64,000 bases of DNA from Nitrosopumilus sp. (GCA_964225545.1 CAXQPB010000037.1:1989-65988); one strand, 5' to 3'; positions 32,752-57,800 are shown, counted from the first letter of the stretch. Numbers and translations: made by a program. Notes: generated from the letters alone by a model not told the origin.

Positions 32752-33804
32752 TCAGGCCGGATCGCTCCGCGTCGGCGTCACCGCGTCCATCGAATAGCGC
32801 GGCGTACCTTCCTCGAAAAGTTTGAAGAAGTCCTCACCGAACGGGTCGACCCCGAGCATCGGCATGGACCCGCGGCGAATGGTCCAGTCCCGAGGCGAGA
32901 GCTTTCCAGCTGTCTCGAAGTGTCGGGCAGCGGCCTCCTTGCGCCCGTCTTCGTAGAGAAACCAGGCCAGCGCCCGCTCGGCTCTGGACAGCTGTGATTC
33001 GTCGGACGGACCCGGCTGGTGCTCACGAACCGCACCGGCCTCCATCGCTCCCTTTCCGGTCTTGACCCATTCGCGAATCATATCGAGATACGGCGCGGAC
33101 CGCTTGCCGTGGAATTCCGTGAAAATGTCGGTCCCGTACTGGGCGTCATGCGGCCGACAGATCACGCCTTCCTCGTTGATCCAGATCATCGTCGGAACGT
33201 TGGAGATGTTGTAGAGCTCCGCGACGACGTGACCGGTGTCGACGACACTGGGATGCGTCGAACCGGCCCGTTCGATAAACGGCCGGATGTCATCAGCGCT
33301 CCGATCCAGAGCGACCGTGAACGGGACAAAACCCTGATCGCCGAGCTCCTCGTAAAGTGCCTGCCAGACCGGCAGGTCCTCACGGCATCCTCACCAGGAC
33401 GCGTGGGCGATGAGCAGTACTTTTTTGCCTCGGTGCTGCGACAGGCTGTGAAGATTCCCGTCGAGATCGGGCAGGGAAAAATCCGGCGCCTCCAGGGACT
33501 CCATCTGCGCAGCGCGCGCGGCGCGGGGTGTGCCGATTGCAGCAGCTCTCTCGGCGACGTCGAGCGCCAGGGGGCGGTCGAGAAGGTCGGCCAGGCCCCG
33601 AAGGTCGACCTCGCCATCGACAACGAGACGAGACGGGTCCGAGACTCGGACGCAGACTTCGCCGCGACACAAGCCTTCGGGCTTGAGCTCCCATCCGATA
33701 CCCGAGTTCAGGGCATCCGGCGCGATCCGCACAGCCCCGTCGCGGATCTCCACCGGAAGCTCAATCCGTTTTTCTCCGTCGATCAAAAGGACGGGACGGT
33801 TCAT
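32752..33804 (-). CDS. Candidate selenoprotein: TlpA/ResA-like thioredoxin-fold thiol:disulfide oxidoreductase with an in-frame UGA (33391-33393) at the first redox-active position (..LLIAHASW-U-GCREDLP..). It has an N-terminal extra domain and a C-terminal extension.
   Basis: Track ORFs 33391..33804 and 32752..33189 are in the same frame, separated only by one TGA. I translated the intervening 67 codons myself and they are open. The alignment to the WCxPC redoxin motif puts the TGA exactly where the first Cys would be. A SECIS-like hairpin follows. Confidence 0.6.
33357..33383 (-). promoter_or_regulatory. SECIS-like stem-loop 8-14 nt downstream of the in-frame UGA: GUG-AGGA-CCUGCC-GGUCU-GGCAGG-CAC (mRNA sense).
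   Basis: Perfect 6 bp upper stem plus a 3 bp lower stem. The apical loop GGUCU resembles the GGUC loop of the E. coli fdhF SECIS. Position relative to the UGA is appropriate for bacterial SelB recognition. Confidence 0.45.
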
Positions 33805-34084: not shown

Positions 34085-37000
34085 ATGCGCCTGAAAAACG
34101 CCCTTGCTGCCGTCAGCCTGGCTGCCGTTGTGCCGACTGCAGCTCATGCCCAGCCGTCTTACGTGAATTTCGAGTCCGGCTCCGTTCGCCCGATGGCACT
34201 CAGCCCGGACGGCACGCGGTTGTTCGCCGCGAACACACCGGACAACCGCATCGAAGTATTCGATGTCCATGCCGGTGGCATCACTCACACGGAGTCGATC
34301 CCGGTAGGAATGGACCCGGTAGCGATTGCGGCGCGCAGTAACTCCGAGATCTGGGTCGTCAACCATTTGTCCGACAGCGTATCGATCGTCGACGTGTCGG
34401 CGATTCCCGGTCGGGTCGTGACCACGCTTCTCGTCGGCGATGAACCGCGCGATATCGTCTTTGCCGGCACCGGAGGAAACAGGGCCTTCATTACCACAGC
34501 CCACCGCGGACAGCAGCGAACCAATCCCGCGATCGCCGGCGTTCCCGGAGCGGGTGATCCCCAGTTCACAGCTCCGGGAGTCGGCCGGGCGGACGTATGG
34601 GTGTTCGATGCGAACAACCTCGGATCTGCCATCGGCGGAACGCCGCTGGAAATCGTCAGCTTCTTCGCGGACACACCGCGCGGGCTCGCGAAGAAGGCGG
34701 ATGGATCAACCGTCTACGTCTGCGGGTTCAACACGGGAAACCAGACCACGATCGTCAACGAAGGCACGGTATGCGACGGCTTCCAGTCGTCAGGCGGATG
34801 CTCCGGAGACGGGATTTCGATGCCCGGCGGATTGCCGGGAGGTCAGATGCCCGGCGGTGAGCCGGGACCGAGCGCCAACATTGATGGCGTGGCGGCGCCG
34901 GAGGTCGGACTGATCGTCAAATACGACCGGCAGTCGGGAATATGGACCGATGAGCTCTCGCGGAACTGGAATAACGCCGTCCGGTTCAACCTGCCCGACG
35001 AAGACTGCTTCGCCCTCGATGCAGCTACGCTCAATCAGACGGCCGTTCACGCTCACATCGGCACGACGCTCTTCAACGCAGCGGTCCACCCGGTGACCGG
35101 TGATCTCTACGTCTCGAACCAGGAGGCGATCAACGAGGTCCGATTCGAAGGCCCGGGGACCATGACGGGCTCGACCGTCCAGGGCCGGCTGGCCGAGGCT
35201 CGTGTGACAATCATCGAGGATCCCGACACGACCGATCCAAGCGGAGCGAATGTACTCGCACGACACCTGAACAAGCACATCAATTACGCGGTTCTCGCTT
35301 CCGACCCGGGTTTCGACCCGACGGTCCGTGACCACAGCCTCGCAACCCCGCTCGAGATGGTCTTCGACTCGACGGGCACGAAAATCTACATCGCCGCCTT
35401 CGGGTCAGGGAAGGTCGGGGTGCTCGATGCAGCCGCACTCAAGAACGATTCGTTCAACCCGACCACCGCGAGCGCCGACTACATTCAGGTTTCCGGCGGA
35501 GGCCCCGCCGGTCTCATCCTCGACGAGACCAACCAGCAACTCCTCGTCCTGACGCGTTTCGACAACTCGATCTCCGTCGTCGACCTCGGCAGCAACGCAG
35601 AAACGGATCACATCGCGCTGCACAACCCGGAGCCGGCCTCCGTCACCGACGGCAGGCGCTTCCTCTACGATGCCGACTTCACGTCGGCCAACGGCGAGGC
35701 TTCGTGCTCGAGCTGCCACATCTTCGGCGACACGGACCATCTGGCGTGGAACCTCGGCGTCCCCGAGGAACATGTCACCACCAACCCGGTAGGCCCCGGA
35801 GGCATCAAGCTCGGCATCGCAGCGCCGGGAGATACCAATGGTGGCGCAGGCGTCGCCGAGTTCCACCCGATGAAGGGGCCAATGGGAACTCAGACCCTGA
35901 AGGGGCTGTCGACGCATGGCCCGATGCACTGGCGAGGCGATCGCGCCGACGGTGTTTTCGGGAGCGGGACCGGCGAAGAGCTTTCGTTCAATAATTTCAT
36001 CGTCGCATTTCAGGGCCTCGTGGGTCGCGAGTTCGCAATCACGCCGACCGACATGCAGGCATTCACCACTTTCTCGCTCGGAATGATGTTGCCGCCGAAC
36101 CCGGTCCGCGCCCTGGACAATTCGCTCACAGCCGAACAGCAGGGCGGCGCCGATTTCTACCTGGGAACCAGGCTGTCCGATGGTATCCCCGGCTTCGGTT
36201 TCACCTGCAATGGCTGTCACGTGCTCGACAGCTCGCAGGGCTTCTTCGGCACCGATGGCGGCTTCAGCTTCGAGGCCGAGACGCAGATCATGAAGGTCGC
36301 GCATCTGCGCAACCTCTACACTCGAGTCGGCATGTTCGGGATGCCCGACACCGACTTCTTCCGAAGCGGAAACAACGGCGCGCAAGGAGATCAGATCCGC
36401 GGGTTCGGCTTCATCCACGATGCATCGACGGACACGCTTTTCCGGTTCTTCACAGCGGATGTCTTCCAGGAGAACGGAAGCGTGGGCTTCGATGGTCCTC
36501 AGAACGGAGACGACAAACGCCGGCAGATGGAGTCCTTCATGCTGGCTTTCGAGAACGACGTCGCCCCGATTGTCGGCCAGCAGATCACACTCACGAGCAC
36601 CAATGCCGCCACTGTAAATTCCCGAATCGACCTGATGAGCGATCGCTGTCAGACACCCTTCGAATCGGCGACGCTCGGGGGACTGGTCACGGAGTGCGAC
36701 CTCATCGTCAAGGGAGTGTTCGGCGGAGAGGCACGCGGTGCCGTTCTGCAGGGCGGCGTGTTCATCAGCGACCGAGCCGGGGATCCCTCCTTGACCGACG
36801 CACAGATGCGCAGCCTCGCCACGACGCCCGGGCAGGAGATTACCTACACGGCGGTGCCGCCGGGCTCCGGCACGCGCATGGGCATTGATCGCGATCTCGA
36901 TAGCGTTCTGGACGGCGACGACAACTGCCCCGGCACACCGAACGCGGGCCAGGCCGATTCCGACAACAACGGCGTCGGAGATGCCTGCGAGGGCGGCGGA

Positions 37001-37537
37001 GTCACGACAACGACCACCACGTCCACGACCTCGACGACCTCGACGACATCGACAACTTCGACCACTCTGTCCGGAACCCACGGCCCGTTCCCGACTCGGT
37101 CGCTGAAGATTGCCCGGCTGACCAAGCCGGCAGGCCAGCAGAAGCTCACTCTCAAGAGCGAGGACATGGACGGCACCGGCTTGTTCTTCACCCCGCTCAG
37201 CGAGGACCTGACGATTACGCTGTCGCTTCCAAATGGAACCGTTGTGGGTTCCGCGACGATTCCCGCTGGTGATCCGGACTGGAAGGCTTCAGCCTCATCG
37301 TTCCGCTGGAAAGCCAAGGCGGCGCCGCACCCGGAAGGTCTTCGCAGCGCAAGACTGGGCAGCTCCGGACGGCCGTTCGCGTTCAGCACGAAGGCCGGGA
37401 ATATCGACGCTTCGGGGGCTGGATCGGCGGGCGCGGGCGGCTTCGTGATCACGCTGACGATCGGAGATGATGCGTGGTCGGGCCCGACACCCGGATGCCG
37501 GCTCTCCGGGAGTGGAAACACGCTGAAGTGCGGGTGA
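34085..37537 (+). CDS. Large secreted multi-domain protein (1150 aa). N-terminal signal peptide, a YVTN-type beta-propeller repeat region, a di-heme cytochrome c (peroxidase-like) domain with two CxxCH motifs (CSSCH, CNGCH), calcium-binding TSP3-like D-rich repeats, a Thr/Ser-rich linker and a C-terminal domain.
   Basis: Signal peptide MRLKNALAAVSLAAVVPTAAHA. Repeated ...PDG..L(F/Y)..N...(N/S)..V(F/I)D... propeller blades. Two CxxCH motifs about 175 aa apart. DSDNNGVGDACEGGG followed by TTTTTTSTTSTTSTTSTTSTT. Confidence 0.75.
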   Translation: MRLKNALAAVSLAAVVPTAAHAQPSYVNFESGSVRPMALSPDGTRLFAANTPDNRIEVFDVHAGGITHTESIPVGMDPVAIAARSNSEIWVVNHLSDSVSIVDVSAIPGRVVTTLLVGDEPRDIVFAGTGGNRAFITTAHRGQQRTNPAIAGVPGAGDPQFTAPGVGRADVWVFDANNLGSAIGGTPLEIVSFFADTPRGLAKKADGSTVYVCGFNTGNQTTIVNEGTVCDGFQSSGGCSGDGISMPGGLPGGQMPGGEPGPSANIDGVAAPEVGLIVKYDRQSGIWTDELSRNWNNAVRFNLPDEDCFALDAATLNQTAVHAHIGTTLFNAAVHPVTGDLYVSNQEAINEVRFEGPGTMTGSTVQGRLAEARVTIIEDPDTTDPSGANVLARHLNKHINYAVLASDPGFDPTVRDHSLATPLEMVFDSTGTKIYIAAFGSGKVGVLDAAALKNDSFNPTTASADYIQVSGGGPAGLILDETNQQLLVLTRFDNSISVVDLGSNAETDHIALHNPEPASVTDGRRFLYDADFTSANGEASCSSCHIFGDTDHLAWNLGVPEEHVTTNPVGPGGIKLGIAAPGDTNGGAGVAEFHPMKGPMGTQTLKGLSTHGPMHWRGDRADGVFGSGTGEELSFNNFIVAFQGLVGREFAITPTDMQAFTTFSLGMMLPPNPVRALDNSLTAEQQGGADFYLGTRLSDGIPGFGFTCNGCHVLDSSQGFFGTDGGFSFEAETQIMKVAHLRNLYTRVGMFGMPDTDFFRSGNNGAQGDQIRGFGFIHDASTDTLFRFFTADVFQENGSVGFDGPQNGDDKRRQMESFMLAFENDVAPIVGQQITLTSTNAATVNSRIDLMSDRCQTPFESATLGGLVTECDLIVKGVFGGEARGAVLQGGVFISDRAGDPSLTDAQMRSLATTPGQEITYTAVPPGSGTRMGIDRDLDSVLDGDDNCPGTPNAGQADSDNNGVGDACEGGGVTTTTTTSTTSTTSTTSTTSTTLSGTHGPFPTRSLKIARLTKPAGQQKLTLKSEDMDGTGLFFTPLSEDLTITLSLPNGTVVGSATIPAGDPDWKASASSFRWKAKAAPHPEGLRSARLGSSGRPFAFSTKAGNIDASGAGSAGAGGFVITLTIGDDAWSGPTPGCRLSGSGNTLKCG
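37003..37068 (+). repeat. Tandem 9 nt (acgacctcg-type) repeats encoding the poly-Thr/Ser linker of the large secreted protein.
   Basis: Seen directly. Confidence 0.7.
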
Positions 37538-37580: not shown

Positions 37581-38087
37581 CTATTCGTCGCGCAGGATGT
37601 GACAGTTATACCCGCCCGGATTCTTGTCGAGGTAATCCTGATGGTACTGCTCAGCAGTCCAGAACGGACCGAGCTCAGCAACTTCCGTCACGACCGGGTC
37701 TCGCCATCTTCCTGACTCGGCTTCTTCCTTCACGATCTCGGCTGCAATCCGTCTCTGCTCGAGCGATGAGACAAAGATCGCCGAGCGGTACTGCGTGCCG
37801 ACGTCGTTGTGCTGACGGTTGAGCGTCGTGGGGTCGTGGAGGCGGAAAAAGTAGCGCACGATCTCTGCGTAGCTGATCTTCTCCGGGTCGAATTCGACCA
37901 GGACCGCCTCGGCATGACCGGTGTGCCCTCCGCAGACGGACCGGTAGTCCGGCTTGTCCGTCAAGCCTCCCGTATACCCGACCTCCGTGCGAATGACGCC
38001 GTCGAGTTGTTTGAACAGATGCTCAACGCCCCAGAAGCAGCCTGCGGCGAGAACCGCGGTTTCGGTGGTCGTGAACGGGTCGGTCAT
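37581..38087 (-). CDS. msrA: Peptide-methionine (S)-S-oxide reductase MsrA.
   Basis: GCFWGVE active-site motif. Start set at MTDPFTTTE (ATG 38085-38087). Confidence 0.9.
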   Translation of the reverse strand: MTDPFTTTETAVLAAGCFWGVEHLFKQLDGVIRTEVGYTGGLTDKPDYRSVCGGHTGHAEAVLVEFDPEKISYAEIVRYFFRLHDPTTLNRQHNDVGTQYRSAIFVSSLEQRRIAAEIVKEEAESGRWRDPVVTEVAELGPFWTAEQYHQDYLDKNPGGYNCHILRDE

Positions 38088-38433
38088 TTCAAGTGTTCTC
38101 CACGAAACCCTCTGCATCCACAGAGAGACGAATACCGAGAATTTTCGAGAGCGTACCATCAGTCGGCTGCGACTCCCACTGCCGCCCGTCCGTCAATCGA
38201 TCGATTCAGGGGGGATCCGCTGAGACCCCGACAGCCGGCCCGAAGATCGCCGCACCCCCTGCCGGAGCGGTGACCGCCACAGGCGTCGCGCACGCCGAAG
38301 CCCGGCGTTTCTGGCTCTGCAGGCAAAAGACGCACCGGCAGCCCCGCAGACTGCTTCCCTCGAGTCGCGCGGCGGCGTATCCTCTCCCGAGTCCGCTGAA
38401 GTCTGTCGAAGGCTGCGGTGCGGACTTTTTACG

Positions 38434-41129: not shown

Positions 41130-41456
41130 CTCCGACCACGAACAATTCGTTGTTGAGCCACGCATGAATTCGCGGCGTGCGCTCCGGCGACAGTATCGCT
41201 GCGATGCGCTCGTATGCGGGCGCGTCTCGGCGATGTAGAGCCGGCTCAGCGGACACGTATCAACACGCGACGGTTCCCGCCGGCTCTCAGAAGTTCGCTG
41301 GCAACCGCAACGTTCGGAAGTCCAGTCCATCACTGCTCCGCGCGGCCGTTGCCGCGTGGCAGATGGAACACGTGTTCACGACTTTCCCGGGGAGGCCAGG
41401 TGCCGTCCCGCGCAGTCGGGTTCACGCGGGGTGGTGTGGCGGACAGGAACATTGAT

Positions 41457-42515
41457 GTGAAGAAGCAGAATCGGAAGTACCGGCTCAGTGCGTTCGCGCC
41501 GAGCCTCCTCGCCGTTCTCGTTGCGGCGACGATTCACGGCTCCGCGCCGACGGTACACGCGTGTGACGTTTGCTCGATCTATATCGGCACAACCAAGCAG
41601 GAACAGCGTAAGGGACCGTTTGTCGCCGCTGCCGAGCAGTTCACGCGCTTCGGCACTCTTCAACTCAATGGAAAAGAAATTCCGAACTTCGACAACGAGC
41701 GCGTCGACAGCTCGATCACTCAGTTCGTGCTCGGTTACACATTCAGCCGCAGGGCTCACGTGCAGGTAAATGTCCCGTTCATCAACCGCGACTATCGGCG
41801 GGTTACGGCGACCGGGACCGAGTCAGGCAAGGAGACCGGTGTCGGCGACATTATGCTCGTCGGTCGCTACAGCGTGGTGCAGACGGTCTTTCCCAACAGC
41901 ATCCTCAACCTCGACCTCGTCGGCGGTTTGAAGTTGCCGAGCGGCAGTACCGATCGGCTCGGGGAAGATCCGATTCCCGTACCGGAGGCGGCCGAAGCCA
42001 GAGGGAGTTCATTTTCCCGGCAGACCATCGAGGGGCCGCGTCCGCACCACGATGGTGAAACGTCGATCAGCGGTGTCCACGGTCATGATCTGACACTGGG
42101 AACCGGGTCGGTGGACGGCATGATCGGAACGCGGCTTTTCACCTCGTACCAAAGGCTGTTCTTCGCCGCGGGCGTGCAATACATGCTCCGCACCGAGGGA
42201 GACTACAAGTACCACTACGCCAACGAGCTCCAGTGGAATTCGAGCATAGGCGCGTATGTACTCCTCAACCACGACTACACGTTCGCGCTCGAGTCGTGGA
42301 TCCACGGCGAGACCAAGGGCAAGGATACCCAGAACGGGGTGCGCATCGACGACACCTCGGTAACCGCCCTCTATATCGGCCCGAAAGCCCGATTCAGTTA
42401 TCGCGACCGGACCAATGCTGATTTCGGTATCGGTTTTCCGGTCATTCAGAACACTACCGATCTCCAGATCGTCGCAGACTGGAGAATTCGTGCTGCATGG
42501 ATCTGGCACTTCTGA
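41457..42515 (+). CDS. Outer-membrane beta-barrel protein (MetA-pathway/phenol-degradation-like transporter family, putative).
   Basis: Signal peptide RLSAFAPSLLAVLVAATIHGSAPTVHA. Alternating amphipathic beta-strand pattern. C-terminal aromatic residue (…AAWIWHF). Probable GTG start at 41457; the ATG-initiated track ORF would add about 80 aa of unlikely N-terminus. Confidence 0.5.
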   Translation: MKKQNRKYRLSAFAPSLLAVLVAATIHGSAPTVHACDVCSIYIGTTKQEQRKGPFVAAAEQFTRFGTLQLNGKEIPNFDNERVDSSITQFVLGYTFSRRAHVQVNVPFINRDYRRVTATGTESGKETGVGDIMLVGRYSVVQTVFPNSILNLDLVGGLKLPSGSTDRLGEDPIPVPEAAEARGSSFSRQTIEGPRPHHDGETSISGVHGHDLTLGTGSVDGMIGTRLFTSYQRLFFAAGVQYMLRTEGDYKYHYANELQWNSSIGAYVLLNHDYTFALESWIHGETKGKDTQNGVRIDDTSVTALYIGPKARFSYRDRTNADFGIGFPVIQNTTDLQIVADWRIRAAWIWHF

Positions 42516-42559
42516 CGCATGGAGCCCATGCAACGCGAACCACAAAAGGAATTGGGAAC

Positions 42560-43510
42560 ATGCATCACTTACAGGTGACAGGAACGCTCCGAAGCAGAAC
42601 TCGAGGCCGCACCACGGCAACCGCAATCGGCGCCGCTGCAGCAGTGCTGGTCATGTCGTTGTGCAGTCCGACGCCCGCGCAAGCAGACGATGAGGTACAT
42701 TCGGAAATCCTCTTCTACTCGGCCGCGGATGGCGGCGGACAGATCATGGCAGACTTTGATTTTTCCGAACATGTGCACGTCGCGCCAGTGGGATGCAGCT
42801 CAGGGAGCTGTGTTTACACCCACCAAGGAACGGGACTGGTGGCAGCGGGGCCGGGCGAGGCGCACCACGGTCTTTACCTGCTCGACGATGGCATTCTGTT
42901 CACCCTCGAGATCGTATCCATCAGCCCGGAAGTCTCGATCCGCTCCGGCAACGCGACACTGAATACGGACGGGCAGATCCTGCGACTGGGTTTCAGCCCC
43001 TTCCATCTCGACCTCGTATGGCAGTTGGAGCTGCCGGAGGGCGACGTTCACGAGGCGTCGGTTACATTCAAGGTCACGAGCAGCTCCCCTGCGTACCTCG
43101 ACTCGCCGCCGTACACGCTGTGGCTATCGAACGAGGAAGAGCATCATGAGACGACGACCACCACGATGGGCTTCGTCACCACCACGACGCACGACGCGCA
43201 TTCTCACTGCGGAGACGGGTTCGTCGACCACGGGGAGACATGTGATGAAGGGCATCACCATTGGTCCATGGGCCATCACTGCGGCGCGGATTGCAATCTG
43301 CTGGCCTGTGGTGACCCCGACGATACCGGCGAGGTCACCGTCGTCGATGCGCTCCATACGCTGAAAACCGCGGTCGATCTGGCCTCCTGTGACCTCTGCG
43401 TTTGCGACGTCAACAGCGACCGGAGCATCACGCCGAGCGATGCCCTTTTGAGCCTCCAGGAGGCAACCCAGAGCTCACACCACGCGATGGAGTGTCCCGC
43501 CTGCGAGTGA
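42560..43510 (+). CDS. Secreted protein with a His/Thr-rich region, a Cys-rich CGDG...ETCDEG motif and a C-terminal dockerin-like Ca-binding repeat (DVNSDRSITPSDALLSL).
   Basis: RBS AAAGGA then ATG 42560 and a signal peptide ending in AQA. Motifs identified by eye. Confidence 0.55.
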   Translation: MHHLQVTGTLRSRTRGRTTATAIGAAAAVLVMSLCSPTPAQADDEVHSEILFYSAADGGGQIMADFDFSEHVHVAPVGCSSGSCVYTHQGTGLVAAGPGEAHHGLYLLDDGILFTLEIVSISPEVSIRSGNATLNTDGQILRLGFSPFHLDLVWQLELPEGDVHEASVTFKVTSSSPAYLDSPPYTLWLSNEEEHHETTTTTMGFVTTTTHDAHSHCGDGFVDHGETCDEGHHHWSMGHHCGADCNLLACGDPDDTGEVTVVDALHTLKTAVDLASCDLCVCDVNSDRSITPSDALLSLQEATQSSHHAMECPACE

Positions 43511-52512: not shown

Positions 52513-52984
52513 TCGCCCGGTTCTCCTTTTTCCAGCCGCAGCCCTCGGCGCGGGTCGACCGATCCTACTGAGTCGGACCGTCGGGTCTAACGCGCAGCGC
52601 TGCCTCGACAAGGGAGAACGAACACGCTGCCGATCGGAGCGCGGCAAAGATTGCTGAGGTCACTCAGGCGTAGAGTCAGCGGGCGACGCCGACACGGAAA
52701 AATCCCTTGGAGCACACCACATTTCCTCCCCACGGGCACAGAGCAACCGAATCCGTTGGCGGGCAAGATTCGAGGCGGGTGTCGCAAACACGTAGGGAAG
52801 GATGAGCCTGAGCACTTTCCCCCACATGCGTATCCACCTGGGTGAAAAATCAGGCCGAATTGAAAAAATTCCCTCTTGAAACCAGCCTTTTACAGTGAAA
52901 TTCTCACGGCACAGTTCATGCACATTCGTGTGCGGTGGGGGACTGATTCATGGCCGAGAGGTCAGAGGCCGACAGGAAACAAAG

Positions 52985-54460
52985 ATGCTTGCCCGAATCC
53001 AAAAAAACCCGCCAATTCTCAAAATTGCGCTCGCATTGGGGCTGATCCCCGGCGCATTCAGTTCACCCTCCCAAGCGGAAGGGCCCAATCTCGGTGATCA
53101 CCGAATCGACCATGCCCGCATCATCGATGGCTCGCTCTCACGCCGCCAGCTCCGCGCCGAAGGATTGCGAATCTTCACGACACCGTTCAACCGCCTCGAT
53201 GGCTACGGCGACGGCCCGATGAACCCCGAGGACACGCTGTCGGCAGGAGGTCGCCCGACTCTGGGAGGAAACGGAACCTACCTTCGTGTAAACGGACTCG
53301 ATGCCCAGACCTGCCTGGAATGCCATACCCAGATCAGCGCGGCCACGATCCCACCGAAGCTGGGCATCGGCGGAGTCGGCGGATCGGCGGCCAACGCGAT
53401 CATTCTACCAACCCAGATCGACACTGCGGACCTCCAGGACGGGGACGGCGAAGCCGGCTTCAATGGCCGATTCGCGAATCCGCCATTCCTGTTCGGAGCG
53501 AGCGGAGTCGAATTGCTGGCACTGGAGATGACCGAGGACCTGCTTGCGCTGCGCGATCAGGCAATCTCGCGGCCCGGCGACCGCATCGCTCTCGTGACGA
53601 AAGGAGTCCGCTTCGGCTCGATCGTTGCCGATGCGAATGGAGGACTCGATACCTCGGCCGTCGAGGGTGTGGACGATGACCTCATCGTGAGACCGTTCGG
53701 ACGCAAGGGTGAGTTCGCCACCACGCGGGACTTCGACATTGAAGCAATGCAGTTCCACTTCGGCATGCAGCCCGTCGAGGTAGTGGGACAGGGAGTGGAC
53801 GGCGATCGCGACGGCGTCGTTGATGAGATCACGGTCGGCGAGCTCTCCGTGCTTCAGATCTTCGCTACGACAGCACCGAGACCTTTCCAGCTCGAGCTGT
53901 CACCCGCCGGGGAGCGAGGGAGCGCGAGCTTTGTCGACCTGGGATGCGAAAACTGCCATCGATCCAGTCTCGATACGCGCGACACAAGCCTGCCACTGCG
54001 ATTTCCGGCGGAGGCCGACCAGCCGAGGCTGAACATCTACCGTCACATCAAGCTCACCCGAGGCGCCCCCGGTTTCGCTCCGAACGCCGGCGGCGGTGTA
54101 ACCGTCCCCTTGTTCGCCGATCTGAAACGACACGACATGGGAGAGGGTCTGGCAGAGGACTTCGGCCTTGTAACTTCCGAGCGGAACCGGGAGTTCACGA
54201 CCGCCAGGCTGTGGGGAATCGCGGATACCGCGCCGTACCTGCACGATGGACGCGCCACGACGCTGACCGATGTCATCCTGATGCATGGTGGCGAAGCTCA
54301 GACAGCCAGGGACCGCTTCGCGGCCCTCTCCGAAGAGGCGCGGTCGGATGTGATCGAGTTTCTGAAGAGCCTGAAAGTGCCCGACGGCAAGTTCTCCCGG
54401 CTTGTGAAACGCGAACCCAAACCGGGGAAAAAGCGTCGCGGAAAACGCGAGGGAAACTAA
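52985..54460 (+). CDS. Secreted DUF1111-family di-heme protein (putative di-heme peroxidase / thiol oxidoreductase-like) with two CxxCH motifs (CLECH, CENCH).
   Basis: Signal peptide (MLARIQKNPPILKIALALGLIPGAFSSPSQA), two heme-c motifs and an approximately 490 aa length typical of DUF1111. Confidence 0.7.
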   Translation: MLARIQKNPPILKIALALGLIPGAFSSPSQAEGPNLGDHRIDHARIIDGSLSRRQLRAEGLRIFTTPFNRLDGYGDGPMNPEDTLSAGGRPTLGGNGTYLRVNGLDAQTCLECHTQISAATIPPKLGIGGVGGSAANAIILPTQIDTADLQDGDGEAGFNGRFANPPFLFGASGVELLALEMTEDLLALRDQAISRPGDRIALVTKGVRFGSIVADANGGLDTSAVEGVDDDLIVRPFGRKGEFATTRDFDIEAMQFHFGMQPVEVVGQGVDGDRDGVVDEITVGELSVLQIFATTAPRPFQLELSPAGERGSASFVDLGCENCHRSSLDTRDTSLPLRFPAEADQPRLNIYRHIKLTRGAPGFAPNAGGGVTVPLFADLKRHDMGEGLAEDFGLVTSERNREFTTARLWGIADTAPYLHDGRATTLTDVILMHGGEAQTARDRFAALSEEARSDVIEFLKSLKVPDGKFSRLVKREPKPGKKRRGKREGN

Positions 54461-54886: not shown

Positions 54887-57800
54887 TCAGCGGGTACTGC
54901 AGCGAATTCGCGTGTTGCCCTCGCAGTCCATGTCCGGGTCGCTGATACACTCTCCAGATGCCGGATCGCCGAACGTGTAGGTGGCCGTAAGAGGTCCGAT
55001 CTCGTCGCTGATCGGCCCTCCGAGGTTCCCGAGATCAAGGTGGAGATCCCGGATCCTGGCCATCACCCGGATCGTCGAAGATGCCGAGTGGTACTTGATG
55101 CGCAGCCGCGACATTCCCGGTGCCTCGATCGACAGCCGACTCGGGTTGTAGCTGTAGGTCGAGCCGCGCACCCGGAAACCTTCAGCCGGCAGGATCGCCG
55201 CGTAGACGGGCTGGGAGTTCGCGTCGAGGATGACCATGTTGAAGCCGTCGAGCGAAGGCGACTTCGTCACCATCAAGCTGGAGAACGACACCTTGATGTC
55301 CATGCTGTCGTCAGCAGGGCGGGTAGACCGCTTGATTCGGATCCGGCCCTCATCCGCCCGGTTCATTTCACCCGAGATGCATTCCCCTGCCACGCAGAAG
55401 TCATTCATCGTACAGATGTCACCGTCGTCGCATCCATAGCCGTCATCCGCCACCGCCGGCTCGCAGGTGTCGGTCAGCTCGCGGCACTCCTCGATGATAC
55501 AATTCTCCGTGCTCTCACAAGGAGCGAGCGAAGACGCACATCCCGCACCGGCATGGCAGACTTCCGCGCCATTGCAGAACTGGCCATCATCGCAGTGCGC
55601 ATTGTTCGCTGCGTTCACGACAGCGTCGATATCCTCGTCGCAATAGTCATCGGTGCAGGCGACGCCGTCGTCGAGCGACGGGGACACGCCTGCCAGACAA
55701 CCTCGGAAAGCGTCACAGGTTTCCGCTCCGTTGCAGAACTGGCCGTCGTCGCAGTTGGCATCGTCCGTAGAGTGCACCATCGAATCCGTGACCTCGTCAC
55801 AGCTGTCTACCGTGCACGCGATTCCGTCGTCGGTCGACGGAGCCGTACCCGCGAGGCACCCCAGCGACACATCACACACTTCCGGACCGTTGCAGAATTC
55901 GCCGTCGTCACATGAAACGTGAAGCGGCGCATTTGTGATGACATCGGCGACCTCGTCGCAGCCATCGATCGTGCACGCCAGCCCGTCGTCCGTGGACGGC
56001 GGGGTACCCGGCTGACAATCGAGCGTCGCGTCGCAGCTCTCCACGCCGTTGCAGAACTGACCGTCATCGCAGTTGGAATCGTCTGCTGCGTACTCGCACC
56101 CGTCGATGAGATCGCAGATATTGTTCGTACAGCCGACAAAGTCATCACAACGCGCGTCGACAGGGGTGCTCGTGCACCAGCCCGCAACACAGGCCTCCTC
56201 CGTGCAATCTACTCCGTCATCGCAATGCGAGGCGCTGTTGCAGTTTCCGTAGAAGAATACCTCGTGAACCGTGGACCCGGAGAAGCCCTGGGTCGTGCCA
56301 CCGGAAACCGTATGGACGAGCGTGCGGCCGTTGTCCTCGACTGCGGCGACGCCCATGAATCCATGGCGCGGGGTCGGGATACTCATCAGGGAGCGCCATG
56401 TATCAGCGCGGGGGTTGTACTCGTGAACGGCATCCACCACCCCGTTCTCGTTTCCACCGGCTGCCAGTGAGAGCTCTCCAGCGAATACCACGATTCGATC
56501 TTCGACCACGGCTGAGGCGTAGCCTCCACGAGCGATCGGAGGCGGTGCCGCTGCACTCCAACTGCCGGTCGCGATATCGTAGACGTGCGTCGAGTCCACG
56601 ACGGTATTCGTCAACCCGTTCCGACCGGAGACGACGTAAAACTTCGAGTCGATCACGTGAGCCTGCGCGCTGTCCCGAGCCTGAGGCATCGAAGCCAGTG
56701 TGAACCACTCATTGTGTGCGCTGCTGTAAGCCCAGAAGCTGTCGACAGCCGGCTCAGGATCTGAGCCGGAGTCTCCCGTACCTCCAGCGCAATAGATCCA
56801 TCCATTGTGGGACGCGCACGCCATGGAACCGCGAGGCTCCGGCAGCGGCGCCAGCGATTGCCATCCGGCAGCAGGATTGTTCGCGTCGAGCACCAGGAGC
56901 TGGTCAGTCGGCTCACGGACGGTCGTCGAGAGACCTCCCGGCATATAGATCCGGTCTTCGATCACGACCGGTTGTACATGGTTACGACCGTGCCCGTCGT
57001 CATCGAGACCCGGAAGCGACGGCCCGGCCGACCAGGTGTCCGTCGCTATATCGTAAACTTCGACGCTGCGGCCTGCGCCCGACTGCTCACCGCCGATCAG
57101 CCACAGCTTGCCGGTCGTGGCCGCAAGCGCAGCCTCACCTCGAGCGATCGCGTTCGACGCGCGAACATCCCAGTAGCCATCACCCAGACAGTCGTCCTCG
57201 GCGGTGCCAGCGGCATCGGGGCAAAAGTCGCAGGCATCTCCGATCCCGTCGCCATCGCGGTCTGACTGCGAGGGGTTGCTGACCGAGGGGCAGTTGTCAC
57301 GGTCGGCGACAGCCGGCGAGGAGTAGCCTGCACCGGCGCAGATTCCATCGCCGTCTGCATCATCGGTCAGATCATCAGGGCAGAAGTCGAACAGATCGCA
57401 GGTGCCGTCGGCATCGGCGTCTACGCCTCCGGGAAGATGCACACAGTACTCATCGTCATTGCAGACATCGGCAGTGCACGGGTTTCCGTCGTTGCAGTCG
57501 CTATCCTTCTCACACAGCTGTACAAGCCTGTGGATCTCGACAGCCTTGAGTGCTGCGTTCGAGTCACCGCTGTCCGCGCTGTCCTCGGTCAGCTTGATAT
57601 CGAGCCGACCATCGGAGACCGTCGTCGTCGCGCTGCGAACGACAAGACCGCCACAGGCATTCGTCTCCCCGCTCTCGGCACGGGCGCTGGCATACGGATC
57701 GAAGCCGTCGCCTACCGCCGCGCCTCCGTAAACGCGATTCCCTTCAAGTTCGATGTCGATCGTTCGCGACCCTGCCTGACACGCGCCCTGGAATGTCTCG

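What the first reader, a model, noticed from the sequence alone, without database searches (positions are those of the whole stretch)
34085..37537. A 1150 aa secreted fusion of a YVTN beta-propeller, a di-heme cytochrome c, TSP3 repeats and a poly-Thr linker
Two CxxCH motifs (CSSCH at about aa 540 and CNGCH at about aa 715) follow a multi-blade propeller. Ca-binding aspartate repeats, a poly-Thr/Ser linker and a roughly 150 aa C-terminal domain complete the protein. Propeller plus di-heme peroxidase-like fusions are uncommon, and this architecture looks like an extracytoplasmic redox enzyme or electron-transfer protein anchored through its C-terminal module. The antisense track ORF 35405..37081 is an artefact.
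Basis: partly seen in the sequence, partly recalled or inferred. Interest (0 to 1): 0.55.

Follow-up and report, generated by a model that had tools for sequence, protein, structure and literature searches.

The report
Secreted propeller–di-heme cytochrome fusion enzyme

Summary
The 1150 aa ORF at 34085..37537 (+) is real and its parts are largely as described. It has a signal peptide, a YVTN beta-propeller (aa ~24-505), two CxxCH motifs (541-545 and 708-712), one TSP3 unit, a poly-Thr/Ser linker and a ~155 aa C-terminal module.

The CxxCH motifs are not fortuitous. They are invariant in 121 close relatives and present in 116/116 and 147/150 divergent representatives. An AlphaFold model of aa 500-935 finds only di-heme peroxidase superfamily structures (YhjA, hydrazine synthase gamma, CcpA, MacA, MbnH, MauG) as its top 20 PDB matches. 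A profile alignment to E. coli YhjA is collinear over both heme motifs (E 2e-5).

The relationship is remote. Pfam CCP_MauG is below threshold, TM-scores are 0.3-0.47, and the bCCP Met ligand position and distal Gln/Glu are not evidently kept.

The fusion is not uncommon: I found about 2,570 clusters at 50% identity and at least 577 species genomes. The C-terminal module is a rare, generic beta-sandwich with no anchor signal.

No conserved partner gene exists in 84 loci. The antisense ORF is an artefact.

Most likely this is a stand-alone extracytoplasmic di-heme redox enzyme whose propeller binds or gates the substrate. The chemistry is unknown.

The parts
34085..34153 (+). Sec-type signal peptide (aa 1-23, MRLKNALAAVSLAAVVPTAAHA|QP)
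   Evidence: Read directly from the translation. This segment is poorly conserved (29% identity), unlike the mature protein. No signal-peptide predictor was available.
34154..35599 (+). YVTN-type beta-propeller (aa ~24-505), with a Cys/Gly/Pro-rich insertion at about aa 215-300
   Evidence: TIGR02276 YVTN repeat: 52.8 bits, 4 stretches. Pfam Lactonase and SGL also match. PDB matches: 1l0q YVTN surface-layer protein 2.7e-18, hydrazine synthase beta 5c2v_B 6.8e-10, and lactonase/NHL matches to aa 409-498. Mean identity across the family is 62%. The blade count was not determined.
35600..36589 (+). Di-heme domain remotely related to bacterial cytochrome c peroxidase/MauG (aa ~506-835)
   Evidence: AF2 model: pLDDT 82, pTM 0.81. 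The Foldseek top 20 are all bCCP/MauG/MbnH/HZS-gamma. hhalign against the YhjA di-heme part: E 2e-5 over 261 collinear columns. Pfam CCP_MauG is sub-threshold, with E 0.0048-0.042.
35705..35719 (+). Heme-binding motif 1, CSSCH (aa 541-545), within GRRFLYDADFTSANGEASCSSCH
   Evidence: Invariant in the 30- and 121-sequence alignments and in 116/116 divergent representatives. Aligns to the MbnH (6e1c) N-terminal heme motif and to YhjA.
35927..35944 (+). Invariant HWRGDR motif (aa 615-620), a possible counterpart of the bCCP FWDGR inter-heme Trp motif
   Evidence: Invariant; 133-137 of 138-139 divergent representatives keep it. The equivalence to FWDGR is inferred only: hhalign instead paired FWDGR with FHPMKG at aa 593-598.
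36206..36220 (+). Heme-binding motif 2, CNGCH (aa 708-712)
   Evidence: Invariant and present in 147/150 divergent representatives. The motif and its upstream context align with the second YhjA heme motif.
36410..36439 (+). FIHDASTDTL (aa 776-785), counterpart of the superfamily motif Y-[MF]-H-D-G-S-x-x-T-L
   Evidence: Aligned to MbnH YMHDGSVATL and to YhjA YFHRGDVPTL. H778 is kept in 128/147 representatives. The bCCP Met position is Ile here and Leu in the family consensus.
36590..36874 (+). Family-specific beta-sandwich appended to the di-heme domain (aa ~836-930)
   Evidence: The AF2 model shows strands here with pLDDT above 90. The region lies beyond the end of the bCCP alignment. It is present in all 29 compared relatives at 52% identity.
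36875..37000 (+). Thrombospondin type-3 Ca-binding repeat unit (aa 931-972)
   Evidence: Pfam TSP_3: 22.7 bits, just under the gathering score of 25. COMP and thrombospondin PDB matches, 1.1e-18 with the family profile. 19 of 30 relatives match TSP_3.
37001..37072 (+). Poly-Thr/Ser linker (aa 973-996)
   Evidence: Read from the sequence. At the DNA level it is a 9-nt tandem repeat, 4.2 copies. It is not conserved (26% identity).
37073..37537 (+). Variable C-terminal all-beta module (aa 997-1150) ending in C...C, followed by the stop codon
   Evidence: AF2 pLDDT 70, all strands. Foldseek gives only generic Ig/beta-sandwich matches at E >= 0.058. No Pfam hit. No hydrophobic segment. Shared by about 6 of 123 relatives.
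35405..37081 (-). Antisense 558 aa ORF: an artefact of high G+C content
   Evidence: GC1 0.80 and GC3 0.60, the mirror of sense GC3 0.795. The translation is rich in Ala, Gly and Arg.

Best explanation
The gene encodes a Sec-exported c-type di-heme protein. Its conserved ~930 aa core is a YVTN beta-propeller rigidly fused to a divergent member of the bacterial di-heme cytochrome c peroxidase / MauG superfamily, plus a family-specific beta-sandwich. Shown here: both CxxCH motifs are under strict selection; the domain has the bCCP/MauG-type fold and motif order; the propeller is as conserved as the heme domain; the gene stands alone. Inferred by analogy with bCCP, MauG, MbnH and hydrazine synthase gamma: two hemes c are attached in the periplasm. 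One heme acts as the reactive site for a small oxidant or substrate (H2O2, O2 or similar). The other relays electrons or oxidising equivalents. The propeller binds or gates the substrate at the heme domain, much as the beta-propeller subunit packs on the di-heme gamma subunit in hydrazine synthase. I consider a MauG/RoxA-style oxidation of an extracytoplasmic substrate more likely than plain H2O2 detoxification. The TSP3 unit, Thr/Ser linker and C-terminal beta-sandwich form a lineage-specific tail, typical of surface or extracellular proteins. They are not part of the catalytic core.
For: The ORF and motifs are confirmed. Both CxxCH motifs are invariant and hold in 116/116 and 147/150 representatives down to about 41% identity. 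Chance expectation for the motifs is 0.0035. The Foldseek top 20 PDB matches are exclusively bCCP/MauG/MbnH/HZS-gamma, over about 350-380 aligned columns, with probability up to 1.00. hhalign against the YhjA di-heme part gives E 2e-5 and a collinear alignment that pairs both heme motifs, KxxHLRN and HDxSxxTL. MbnH alignments agree, as do family-profile matches to 6e1c and 5c2v_C at 1.3e-3. 28 of 30 relatives give weak CCP_MauG matches. The propeller is supported. In full-length relatives the heme domain starts at about residue 460-520. The propeller and the heme domain are each 62% identical across the family. Relatives carry varied tails: TSP3, dockerin, PEP-CTERM, TIG, DUF4215 and MYXO-CTERM. 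No partner gene is conserved in 84 loci. A second c-type di-heme gene (DHOR) in the window shows that the organism makes cytochromes c. The hydrazine synthase architecture is taken from PMC12607021.
Against: The relationship to bCCPs is remote. Pfam PF03150 scores 14.9-18 bits against a cutoff of 25.6. Foldseek E-values are only 3.5e-3 or weaker, TM-scores are 0.3-0.47 and rmsd is 9-14 A. The hhalign probability is 77%, and that required a permissive alignment setting. The bCCP distal Gln/Glu segment is not evidently conserved, and the Met/Tyr ligand position before HDG holds Ile or Leu, so peroxidase chemistry is not assured. Heme attachment, axial ligands, localisation and substrate are all untested. 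The model was built without hemes, and its coordinates could not be inspected. No Ccm/Ccs gene lies in the 64 kb window.
Confidence: 0.62

Rival explanations
1. It is simply a canonical periplasmic cytochrome c peroxidase that detoxifies H2O2 using electrons from a small cytochrome or cupredoxin. The propeller is a passive scaffold.
For: The closest structures are bCCPs (YhjA, CcpA, MacA, NeCCP). In this window the gene sits between a ResA-like thiol oxidoreductase selenoprotein and MsrA, both redox-repair functions.
Against: The bCCP distal Gln/Glu segment and the Met ligand position are not evidently conserved. Pfam CCP_MauG is below threshold in this protein and absent from the precomputed Pfam lists of all 120 relatives. 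The neighbourhood is not conserved in 84 loci, and the redoxin has no homolog near any relative. The propeller is as conserved as the heme domain, which argues against a passive role. Surface or extracellular tails are common in the family.
Confidence: 0.15
2. It is a non-catalytic electron-transfer protein: a surface or periplasmic di-heme shuttle that uses the propeller as a docking platform.
For: It has two c-type heme motifs. Relatives carry cell-surface-type tails. No substrate-related partner genes were found.
Against: The fold is that of the bCCP/MauG enzymes, not a class I or multiheme shuttle cytochrome. The ~930 aa core is 52-70% identical across several phyla, with many invariant polar residues in both domains, which is typical of an enzyme. 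No conserved redox-partner gene is nearby.
Confidence: 0.1
3. It is a hydrazine synthase beta-gamma-like module doing nitrogen-oxide chemistry, for example NO reduction to hydroxylamine.
For: Both halves have hydrazine synthase subunits among their best solved relatives, in the order of the natural beta-gamma fusion. HZS-beta scores 6.8e-10 by profile. HZS-gamma ranks second by fold and scores 1.3e-3 by profile. NCBIfam hydrazine_beta scores 2e-10 and the hydrazine_BC fusion model 8.6e-9.
Against: The NCBIfam matches cover only about 125 N-terminal residues of generic YVTN repeats, at 34-40 bits against cutoffs of 560-1250. No HZS-alpha-like or other conserved partner occurs in 84 loci. The host taxa are Myxococcota, Acidobacteriota, Steroidobacter, Rhizobacter and Binatia, not anammox bacteria.
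Confidence: 0.05
4. The CxxCH motifs are fortuitous and the region is not a cytochrome.
For: Pfam and NCBIfam cytochrome models are all below their curated thresholds.
Against: The motifs are invariant across the family, including divergent members. The chance expectation is 0.0035 motifs. Fold and profile matches are restricted to one di-heme superfamily, and both motifs align with that superfamily's heme motifs.
Confidence: 0.03

Closest known systems
[quoted passage not shown]
   Same: Both have two CxxCH motifs with similar spacing (167 aa here). The motifs are collinear: GRxLFYDxxLSxxGxxSCxSCH, the context of the second heme motif, KxxxLRN, and HDGSxxTL. These structures are the best structural matches.
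   Different: Identity is only 12-16% and TM-scores are 0.3-0.47. The protein falls below the Pfam PF03150 threshold. It has large insertions, and the distal Gln/Glu and the Met ligand are not evident. It is fused to a ~480 aa propeller and carries an extra beta-sandwich.
MauG / MbnH / BthA (bCCP-like enzymes that oxidise protein or peptide substrates via high-valent di-heme states)
   Same: They belong to the same superfamily. MbnH (6e1c) is the best sequence match for heme motif 1 and for the HDGS motif. MauG structures are among the fold matches. Like them, this family departs from the canonical peroxidase residues.
   Different: No Tyr ligand equivalent was identified. There is no mau or mbn gene context. 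The published superfamily network was built from PF03150 members only (PMC6405878), so this family would not have been included.
Hydrazine synthase beta (propeller) plus gamma (di-heme) subunits, 5c2v, and the natural beta-gamma fusion (NCBIfam NF052342)
   Same: It is the only characterised system found here in which a YVTN-like propeller works together with a bCCP-like di-heme module, and the N-to-C order matches. Both subunits rank among the best solved relatives of the two halves (architecture from PMC12607021).
   Different: Scores are far below the family cutoffs. There is no alpha subunit. The taxa are unrelated. Homology beyond the shared folds is not shown.
YVTN/YncE-type beta-propellers (M. 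mazei surface-layer protein 1l0q; E. coli YncE)
   Same: The N-terminal half contains bona fide YVTN repeats. Relatives are named 'YncE family protein' by NCBI and JGI.
   Different: The YncE equivalog model scores 16.9 bits against a cutoff of 400. YncE has no heme domain. The database name describes less than half of the protein.
Di-haem oxidoreductase DHOR/DUF1111 (PF06537), encoded in the same window at 52982..54457
   Same: It is another bCCP-related di-heme protein with Leu in place of Met before HDG (YLHDGRA).
   Different: hhalign between the two gives only a 28-column match at E 0.024. It has no propeller. It is a different family.
RoxA-type extracellular di-heme rubber oxygenases (comparison from my own knowledge, not tested as homologs)
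   Same: They are secreted di-heme c-type enzymes with a bCCP-like core, found in Steroidobacter, Rhizobacter and myxobacteria. Those taxa also carry this family.
   Different: No RoxA structure appeared among the top 50 fold matches. RoxA has no propeller.

Membership tests
bCCP/MauG di-heme superfamily (Pfam PF03150 CCP_MauG) | Two c-type heme-binding CxxCH motifs about 145-170 residues apart | tested here: met
   The motifs are at aa 541-545 and 708-712, 167 aa apart. They are invariant across the family.
bCCP/MauG di-heme superfamily (Pfam PF03150 CCP_MauG) | Score at or above the curated Pfam gathering threshold | tested here: not met
   14.9 bits for the full protein and 18.0 bits for the domain alone, against 25.6; only 45 residues are matched. 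None of the 120 relatives carries PF03150 in the precomputed lists.
bCCP/MauG di-heme superfamily (Pfam PF03150 CCP_MauG) | Two-lobed, mainly helical bCCP fold | tested here: inconclusive
   The top 20 Foldseek matches all belong to this superfamily, with probability up to 1.00 over about 350-380 columns. However, E is 3.5e-3 or weaker, TM-scores are 0.3-0.47 and rmsd is 9-14 A. The model has no hemes.
bCCP/MauG di-heme superfamily (Pfam PF03150 CCP_MauG) | Collinear superfamily motifs around both hemes, plus KxPxLRN and [YF]xHDGSxxTL | tested here: met
   hhalign against YhjA gives E 2e-5 over 261 columns. phmmer alignments to MbnH agree.
Canonical bacterial cytochrome c peroxidase (H2O2 reductase) | Distal Gln/Glu pair (…QDQAxGPxxNPxEM) at the peroxidatic heme, and a Met sixth ligand (Y-M-H-D-G) at the electron-transfer heme | tested here: not met
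   The aligned segment reads TQTLKG…HWRGDR, with no conserved Gln/Glu. The position before H778 is Ile here and Leu in the consensus. The alignment confidence in the distal segment is low.
Canonical bacterial cytochrome c peroxidase (H2O2 reductase) | Inter-heme Trp of the FWDGR motif | tested here: inconclusive
   An invariant HWRGDR (W616) resembles it, but hhalign paired FWDGR with FHPMKG at aa 593-598.
c-type cytochrome in general | Covalently attached heme after export | not testable with these tools
   A signal peptide and the CxxCH motifs are present. No Ccm/Ccs gene lies in the window. A second c-type gene is present.
YVTN beta-propeller repeat (TIGR02276) | Repeat model above the curated cutoff, in multiple copies | tested here: met
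   52.8 bits against 27.85, in 4 stretches. 1l0q matches at 1.8e-13.
YncE (NCBIfam NF052280), the name given to relatives | Equivalog-level match to the 7-bladed YncE model | tested here: not met
   16.9 bits against a cutoff of 400.
Hydrazine synthase beta-gamma fusion (NF052342) | Full-length match above the cutoff, and an associated alpha subunit | tested here: not met
   34.1 bits against 1250, covering residues 11-137 only. No conserved neighbour was found in 84 loci.
Thrombospondin type 3 repeat | DxDxDGxxDxxDNCPxxxNxxQxDxDxDGxGDxC calcium-binding unit | tested here: met
   aa 935-969 align to COMP and thrombospondin repeats. The family profile scores 1.1e-18. Pfam for this single sequence gives 22.7 bits against 25.
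C-terminal anchoring or sorting modules (TM helix, PEP-CTERM, MYXO-CTERM, dockerin) | A hydrophobic C-terminal segment or a recognisable sorting domain | tested here: not met
   The maximum 19-residue hydropathy in the last 200 aa is 1.14. There is no Pfam match. Fold matches are only generic.

The most novel reading that the evidence does not exclude
The ~930 aa propeller plus di-heme core defines a large, unrecognised enzyme class within the bCCP/MauG superfamily. It would be a secreted or surface oxidase, peroxygenase or oxygenase whose substrate (a polymer, a protein or a small molecule) is held by the propeller against a high-valent di-heme centre. Its chemistry would differ from that of bCCP, MauG, MbnH, RoxA and hydrazine synthase. 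It is widespread in soil and sediment Myxococcota, Acidobacteriota, Binatia and Gammaproteobacteria.
Probability: 0.35. Interest if true: 0.7.

Novelty: new variant of a known kind. Interest (0 to 1): 0.5.

Why it matters
The bCCP/MauG superfamily has repeatedly yielded unexpected chemistry. Examples are tryptophan tryptophylquinone biogenesis, MbnH-type protein oxidation, stable bis-Fe(IV) states and hydrazine synthesis (PMC6405878, PMC12607021). This family has thousands of members in environmentally abundant bacteria. It falls below the Pfam threshold that superfamily surveys use, so it has been left out, and public records name it after its propeller only. Recognising it as a conserved propeller plus di-heme enzyme corrects the annotation. 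It also gives a concrete, stand-alone, single-gene target for enzyme discovery. It is an incremental extension of a known superfamily, not a new kind of system.

Tried and rejected
1. The last homolog search, with the di-heme part of E. coli YhjA, was meant to build a diverse bCCP profile. It returned only sequences at least 84% identical, so profile depth barely improved.
2. Default hhalign against single sequences gave only short local matches: 45 columns to YhjA and 28 to the window's DHOR. The full collinear alignment needed a permissive setting.
3. Counting blades with self-derived blade HMMs found only the seed blades plus one weak match. The blade number remains undetermined.
4. The C-terminal module gave three database homologs, no Pfam family, only generic fold matches and no second copy in the window.
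5. Conserved-neighbour analysis over 84 loci found nothing specific.
6. Promoter and terminator scans found nothing. The Rfam scan of the whole window found nothing.
7. Four literature searches found no description of the fusion family. The propeller mentioned in PMC10654088 is FoxY and is unrelated.
8. A search for Ccm/Ccs Trp-rich motifs in the window was negative.
9. A functional link to the adjacent ResA-like selenoprotein was considered. The adjacency is not conserved in relatives, so it is treated as unproven.
10. Model coordinates cannot be read with these tools, so heme-heme and propeller-heme geometry could not be examined.


Full report
**Observation**

The window contains an ATG-to-TGA ORF of 1150 codons at 34085..37537 (+). 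CSSCH lies at aa 541-545 and CNGCH at aa 708-712. With 14 Cys and 24 His in the protein, 0.0035 CxxCH motifs are expected by chance, so P(>=2) is about 6e-6. In all long six-frame ORFs of the window there are six CxxCH motifs. Four of them sit in two genes: this one and a DHOR/DUF1111 di-heme gene at 52982..54457.

The N-terminus (MRLK, an Ala/Val-rich stretch, then AHA|QP) reads as a Sec signal peptide. This comes from direct reading only; no predictor was available.

The antisense ORF 35405..37081 has GC1 0.80 and GC3 0.60, which mirrors the sense frame's GC3 of 0.795. Well-supported genes in the window have GC3 of 0.72-0.75.

**Domain anatomy**

- **Propeller (aa ~24-505).** This is a YVTN-type beta-propeller.
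  - TIGR02276 scores 52.8 bits against a cutoff of 27.85, in 4 stretches. Pfam Lactonase and SGL also match.
  - PDB matches include the YVTN surface-layer protein 1l0q and hydrazine synthase beta 5c2v_B.
- **Di-heme domain (aa ~506-835).** Details follow in the next section.
- **Extra beta-sandwich (aa ~836-930).** It is confidently modelled (pLDDT above 90), lies beyond the end of the peroxidase-like alignment, and is present in all relatives.
- **TSP3 unit (aa 931-972).** This is about one to one and a half calcium-binding repeat units, not an array.
- **Linker (aa 973-996).** A Thr/Ser linker encoded by a 9-nt tandem repeat.
- **C-terminal module (aa 997-1150).**
  - It models as all-beta at pLDDT 70.
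  - It has no Pfam match and no hydrophobic segment.
  - Its structural matches are only generic Ig-like/beta-sandwich folds at E >= 0.058.
  - Only about 6 of 123 relatives share it, and it does not recur in the window.
  - Nothing supports an anchoring role.

**Are the CxxCH motifs a real cytochrome?**

Conservation says yes. Both motifs are invariant in alignments of 30 and 121 relatives. In 150 divergent representatives (down to about 41% identity) they are present in 116/116 and 147/150 sequences that cover them. HWRGDR (aa 615-620), K737, R742, M600 and H778 are also nearly invariant.

Sequence models alone are only suggestive:
- Pfam CCP_MauG gives E 0.042 for the full protein and 0.0048 for the domain alone, both below the gathering score.
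- NCBIfam MbnH gives E 0.022.
- The family profile hits MbnH (6e1c) and hydrazine synthase gamma (5c2v_C) at 1.3e-3.
- 28 of 30 relatives give weak CCP_MauG matches.

Structure prediction adds support. An AlphaFold2 model of aa 500-935, built with 121 sequences, has pLDDT 82 and pTM 0.81. Its top 20 Foldseek matches in the PDB are exclusively members of the di-heme peroxidase superfamily: YhjA, hydrazine synthase gamma, CcpA, MacA, BCCP, N. europaea CCP, MbnH and MauG. They span about 350-380 columns with probability up to 1.00. E-values are only 3.5e-3 or weaker, and TM-scores are 0.3-0.47.

Profile alignment agrees. I took E. coli YhjA from the K-12 genome. A permissive profile-profile alignment then gave one collinear alignment over the entire di-heme part (261 columns, E 2e-5, probability 77%). 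It pairs the following (MbnH alignment):
- heme motif 1 with heme motif 1;
- heme motif 2 and its upstream context with heme motif 2;
- KxxHLRN with KVPGLRN;
- FIHDASTDTL with YFHRGDVPTL.

It is not a canonical peroxidase by sequence. The distal Gln/Glu segment is not evidently conserved. The Met (bCCP) or Tyr (MauG) ligand position before HDG holds Ile or Leu. The inter-heme Trp assignment is ambiguous between W616 of HWRGDR and the FHPMKG segment.

**How common is it?**

The evidence says otherwise:
- The full protein finds more than 7,600 database proteins. The best 120 are 52-70% identical over a core of about 930 aa.
- The heme domain alone finds 2,569 clusters at 50% identity. In full-length members it starts at about residue 460-520, so the fusion is fixed.
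- A scan of species-representative genomes found at least 577 encoding genomes. They include Binatia (best match, 63%), Myxococcota, Acidobacteriota, Steroidobacter, Rhizobacter/Aquabacterium, Halieaceae and Spirochaetaceae. Several genomes have two copies.
- Public names are 'YncE family protein', 'YVTN family beta-propeller protein' or 'hypothetical'. One UniRef entry is named 'Cytochrome c domain-containing protein'.
- The YncE equivalog model scores 16.9 bits against a cutoff of 400, so that name is not a membership.
- The published bCCP/MauG sequence-similarity network was built from PF03150 members (PMC6405878), so this family would have been excluded.
- Four literature searches found no description of it.

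**Context**

The gene appears monocistronic by geometry. A 280-nt gap separates it from a divergent upstream gene, and a 43-nt gap separates it from the convergent msrA.

I examined three individual contexts and clustered all ORFs within +-10 kb in 84 loci. No conserved partner emerged. The best neighbour cluster occurs in 12 of 84 loci and consists of generic response regulators. TonB-receptor neighbours are confined to Steroidobacter-like synteny.

The propeller and the di-heme domain are equally conserved (62% each), whereas the linker and tail are not. Tails vary across the family: TSP3, bacterial TSP3, dockerin, PEP-CTERM, TIG, DUF4215 and MYXO-CTERM. That pattern is typical of surface or extracellular proteins.

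**Mechanism (inference)**

By analogy with the superfamily, two hemes c are attached after export. One heme is the reactive site and the other relays electrons or oxidising equivalents.

The only characterised system I found that combines a YVTN-like propeller with a bCCP-like di-heme module is hydrazine synthase. There, the cofactor-less beta-propeller subunit is proposed to have a structural and gating role next to the di-heme gamma subunit (PMC12607021). Both subunits are among the best solved relatives of the two halves of this protein, in the same order as the natural beta-gamma fusion.

The similarity is at fold or repeat level only. No alpha subunit exists in the neighbourhoods, and the taxa are not anammox bacteria. 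I therefore take hydrazine synthase as an architectural analogy, not a membership.

I favour a stand-alone extracytoplasmic oxidoreductase in which the conserved propeller binds or gates the substrate at the di-heme centre. The rivals are a plain H2O2-detoxifying peroxidase, a non-catalytic electron shuttle, or hydrazine synthase-like nitrogen chemistry. The actual substrate and oxidant are unknown.

**Verdict**

This is a real, widespread, uncharacterised and under-annotated variant of the bCCP/MauG superfamily, not a rare architecture. The C-terminal 'anchor' is unsupported. It is of moderate interest as an enzyme-discovery target.

**Limits**

- The model has no hemes.
- Model coordinates could not be inspected.
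- The blade count is undetermined.
- The bCCP profile used was shallow.

Noticed in passing
window 32752..33804 (-), in-frame TGA at 33391..33393: The divergent upstream gene is one 350-codon frame interrupted by a single TGA inside ...LLIAHASW-U-GCRED..., a thioredoxin-fold active site. With TGA read as Cys it matches NCBIfam NF041054 'ResA-like WAxxUGC motif-containing protein' (E 9.3e-71, 239 bits against a cutoff of 300), and also ResA and TlpA. A hairpin (CCUGCC-GGUCU-GGCAGG) follows about 17 nt after the UGA, though its folding z-score is only -1.5. It is probably a selenoprotein that ORF callers split in two. ResA-type proteins act in cytochrome c maturation, but the adjacency to the di-heme gene is not conserved in 83 related loci.
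   Followed up: partly
window 52982..54457 (+): This is a second di-heme c-type gene (CLECH and CENCH), matching Pfam DHOR/DUF1111 'di-haem oxidoreductase, putative peroxidase' at E 3.4e-19. Its C-terminus gives weak matches to hydrazine synthase gamma, MbnH and MauG. It shows that the organism makes c-type cytochromes.
   Followed up: partly
window 37581..38159 (-): Peptide methionine sulfoxide reductase MsrA (E 5.6e-65) lies convergent with the target gene, with only 43 nt between the stop codons. Together with the upstream redoxin, it gives a local thiol/redox-repair flavour. That flavour is not conserved around relatives.
   Followed up: partly
L004 and L046; L017 and L018; L006 and L024; L038 and L070: Several single genomes (a Binatia MAG, a Proteobacteria MAG, a Myxococcota MAG and a Kofleriaceae MAG) carry two paralogous copies of the propeller plus di-heme gene. 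This hints at substrate diversification within the family.
   Followed up: no
window 57227..57298 (-): A second TSP3-like segment (54% identity over 24 aa to the target's TSP3 unit, E 1.4e-5) suggests that another secreted TSP3-containing protein is encoded in the window.
   Followed up: no
relatives P0086 cluster (Myxococcus spp.), P0079 (Steroidobacter flavus): Annotation is inconsistent for near-identical orthologs: 'hypothetical protein', 'YncE family protein', 'DNA-binding beta-propeller fold protein YncE', and once 'Cytochrome c domain-containing protein' (UniRef A0A540X1Z6).
   Followed up: yes
window 42497..43510 (+) and 41214..42515 (+): These two adjacent ORFs (337 and 433 aa) have no significant Pfam family. 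The first has a faint DUF4215 Cys-rich repeat match (E 0.079). The same repeat forms the tail of some relatives of the target protein.
   Followed up: no
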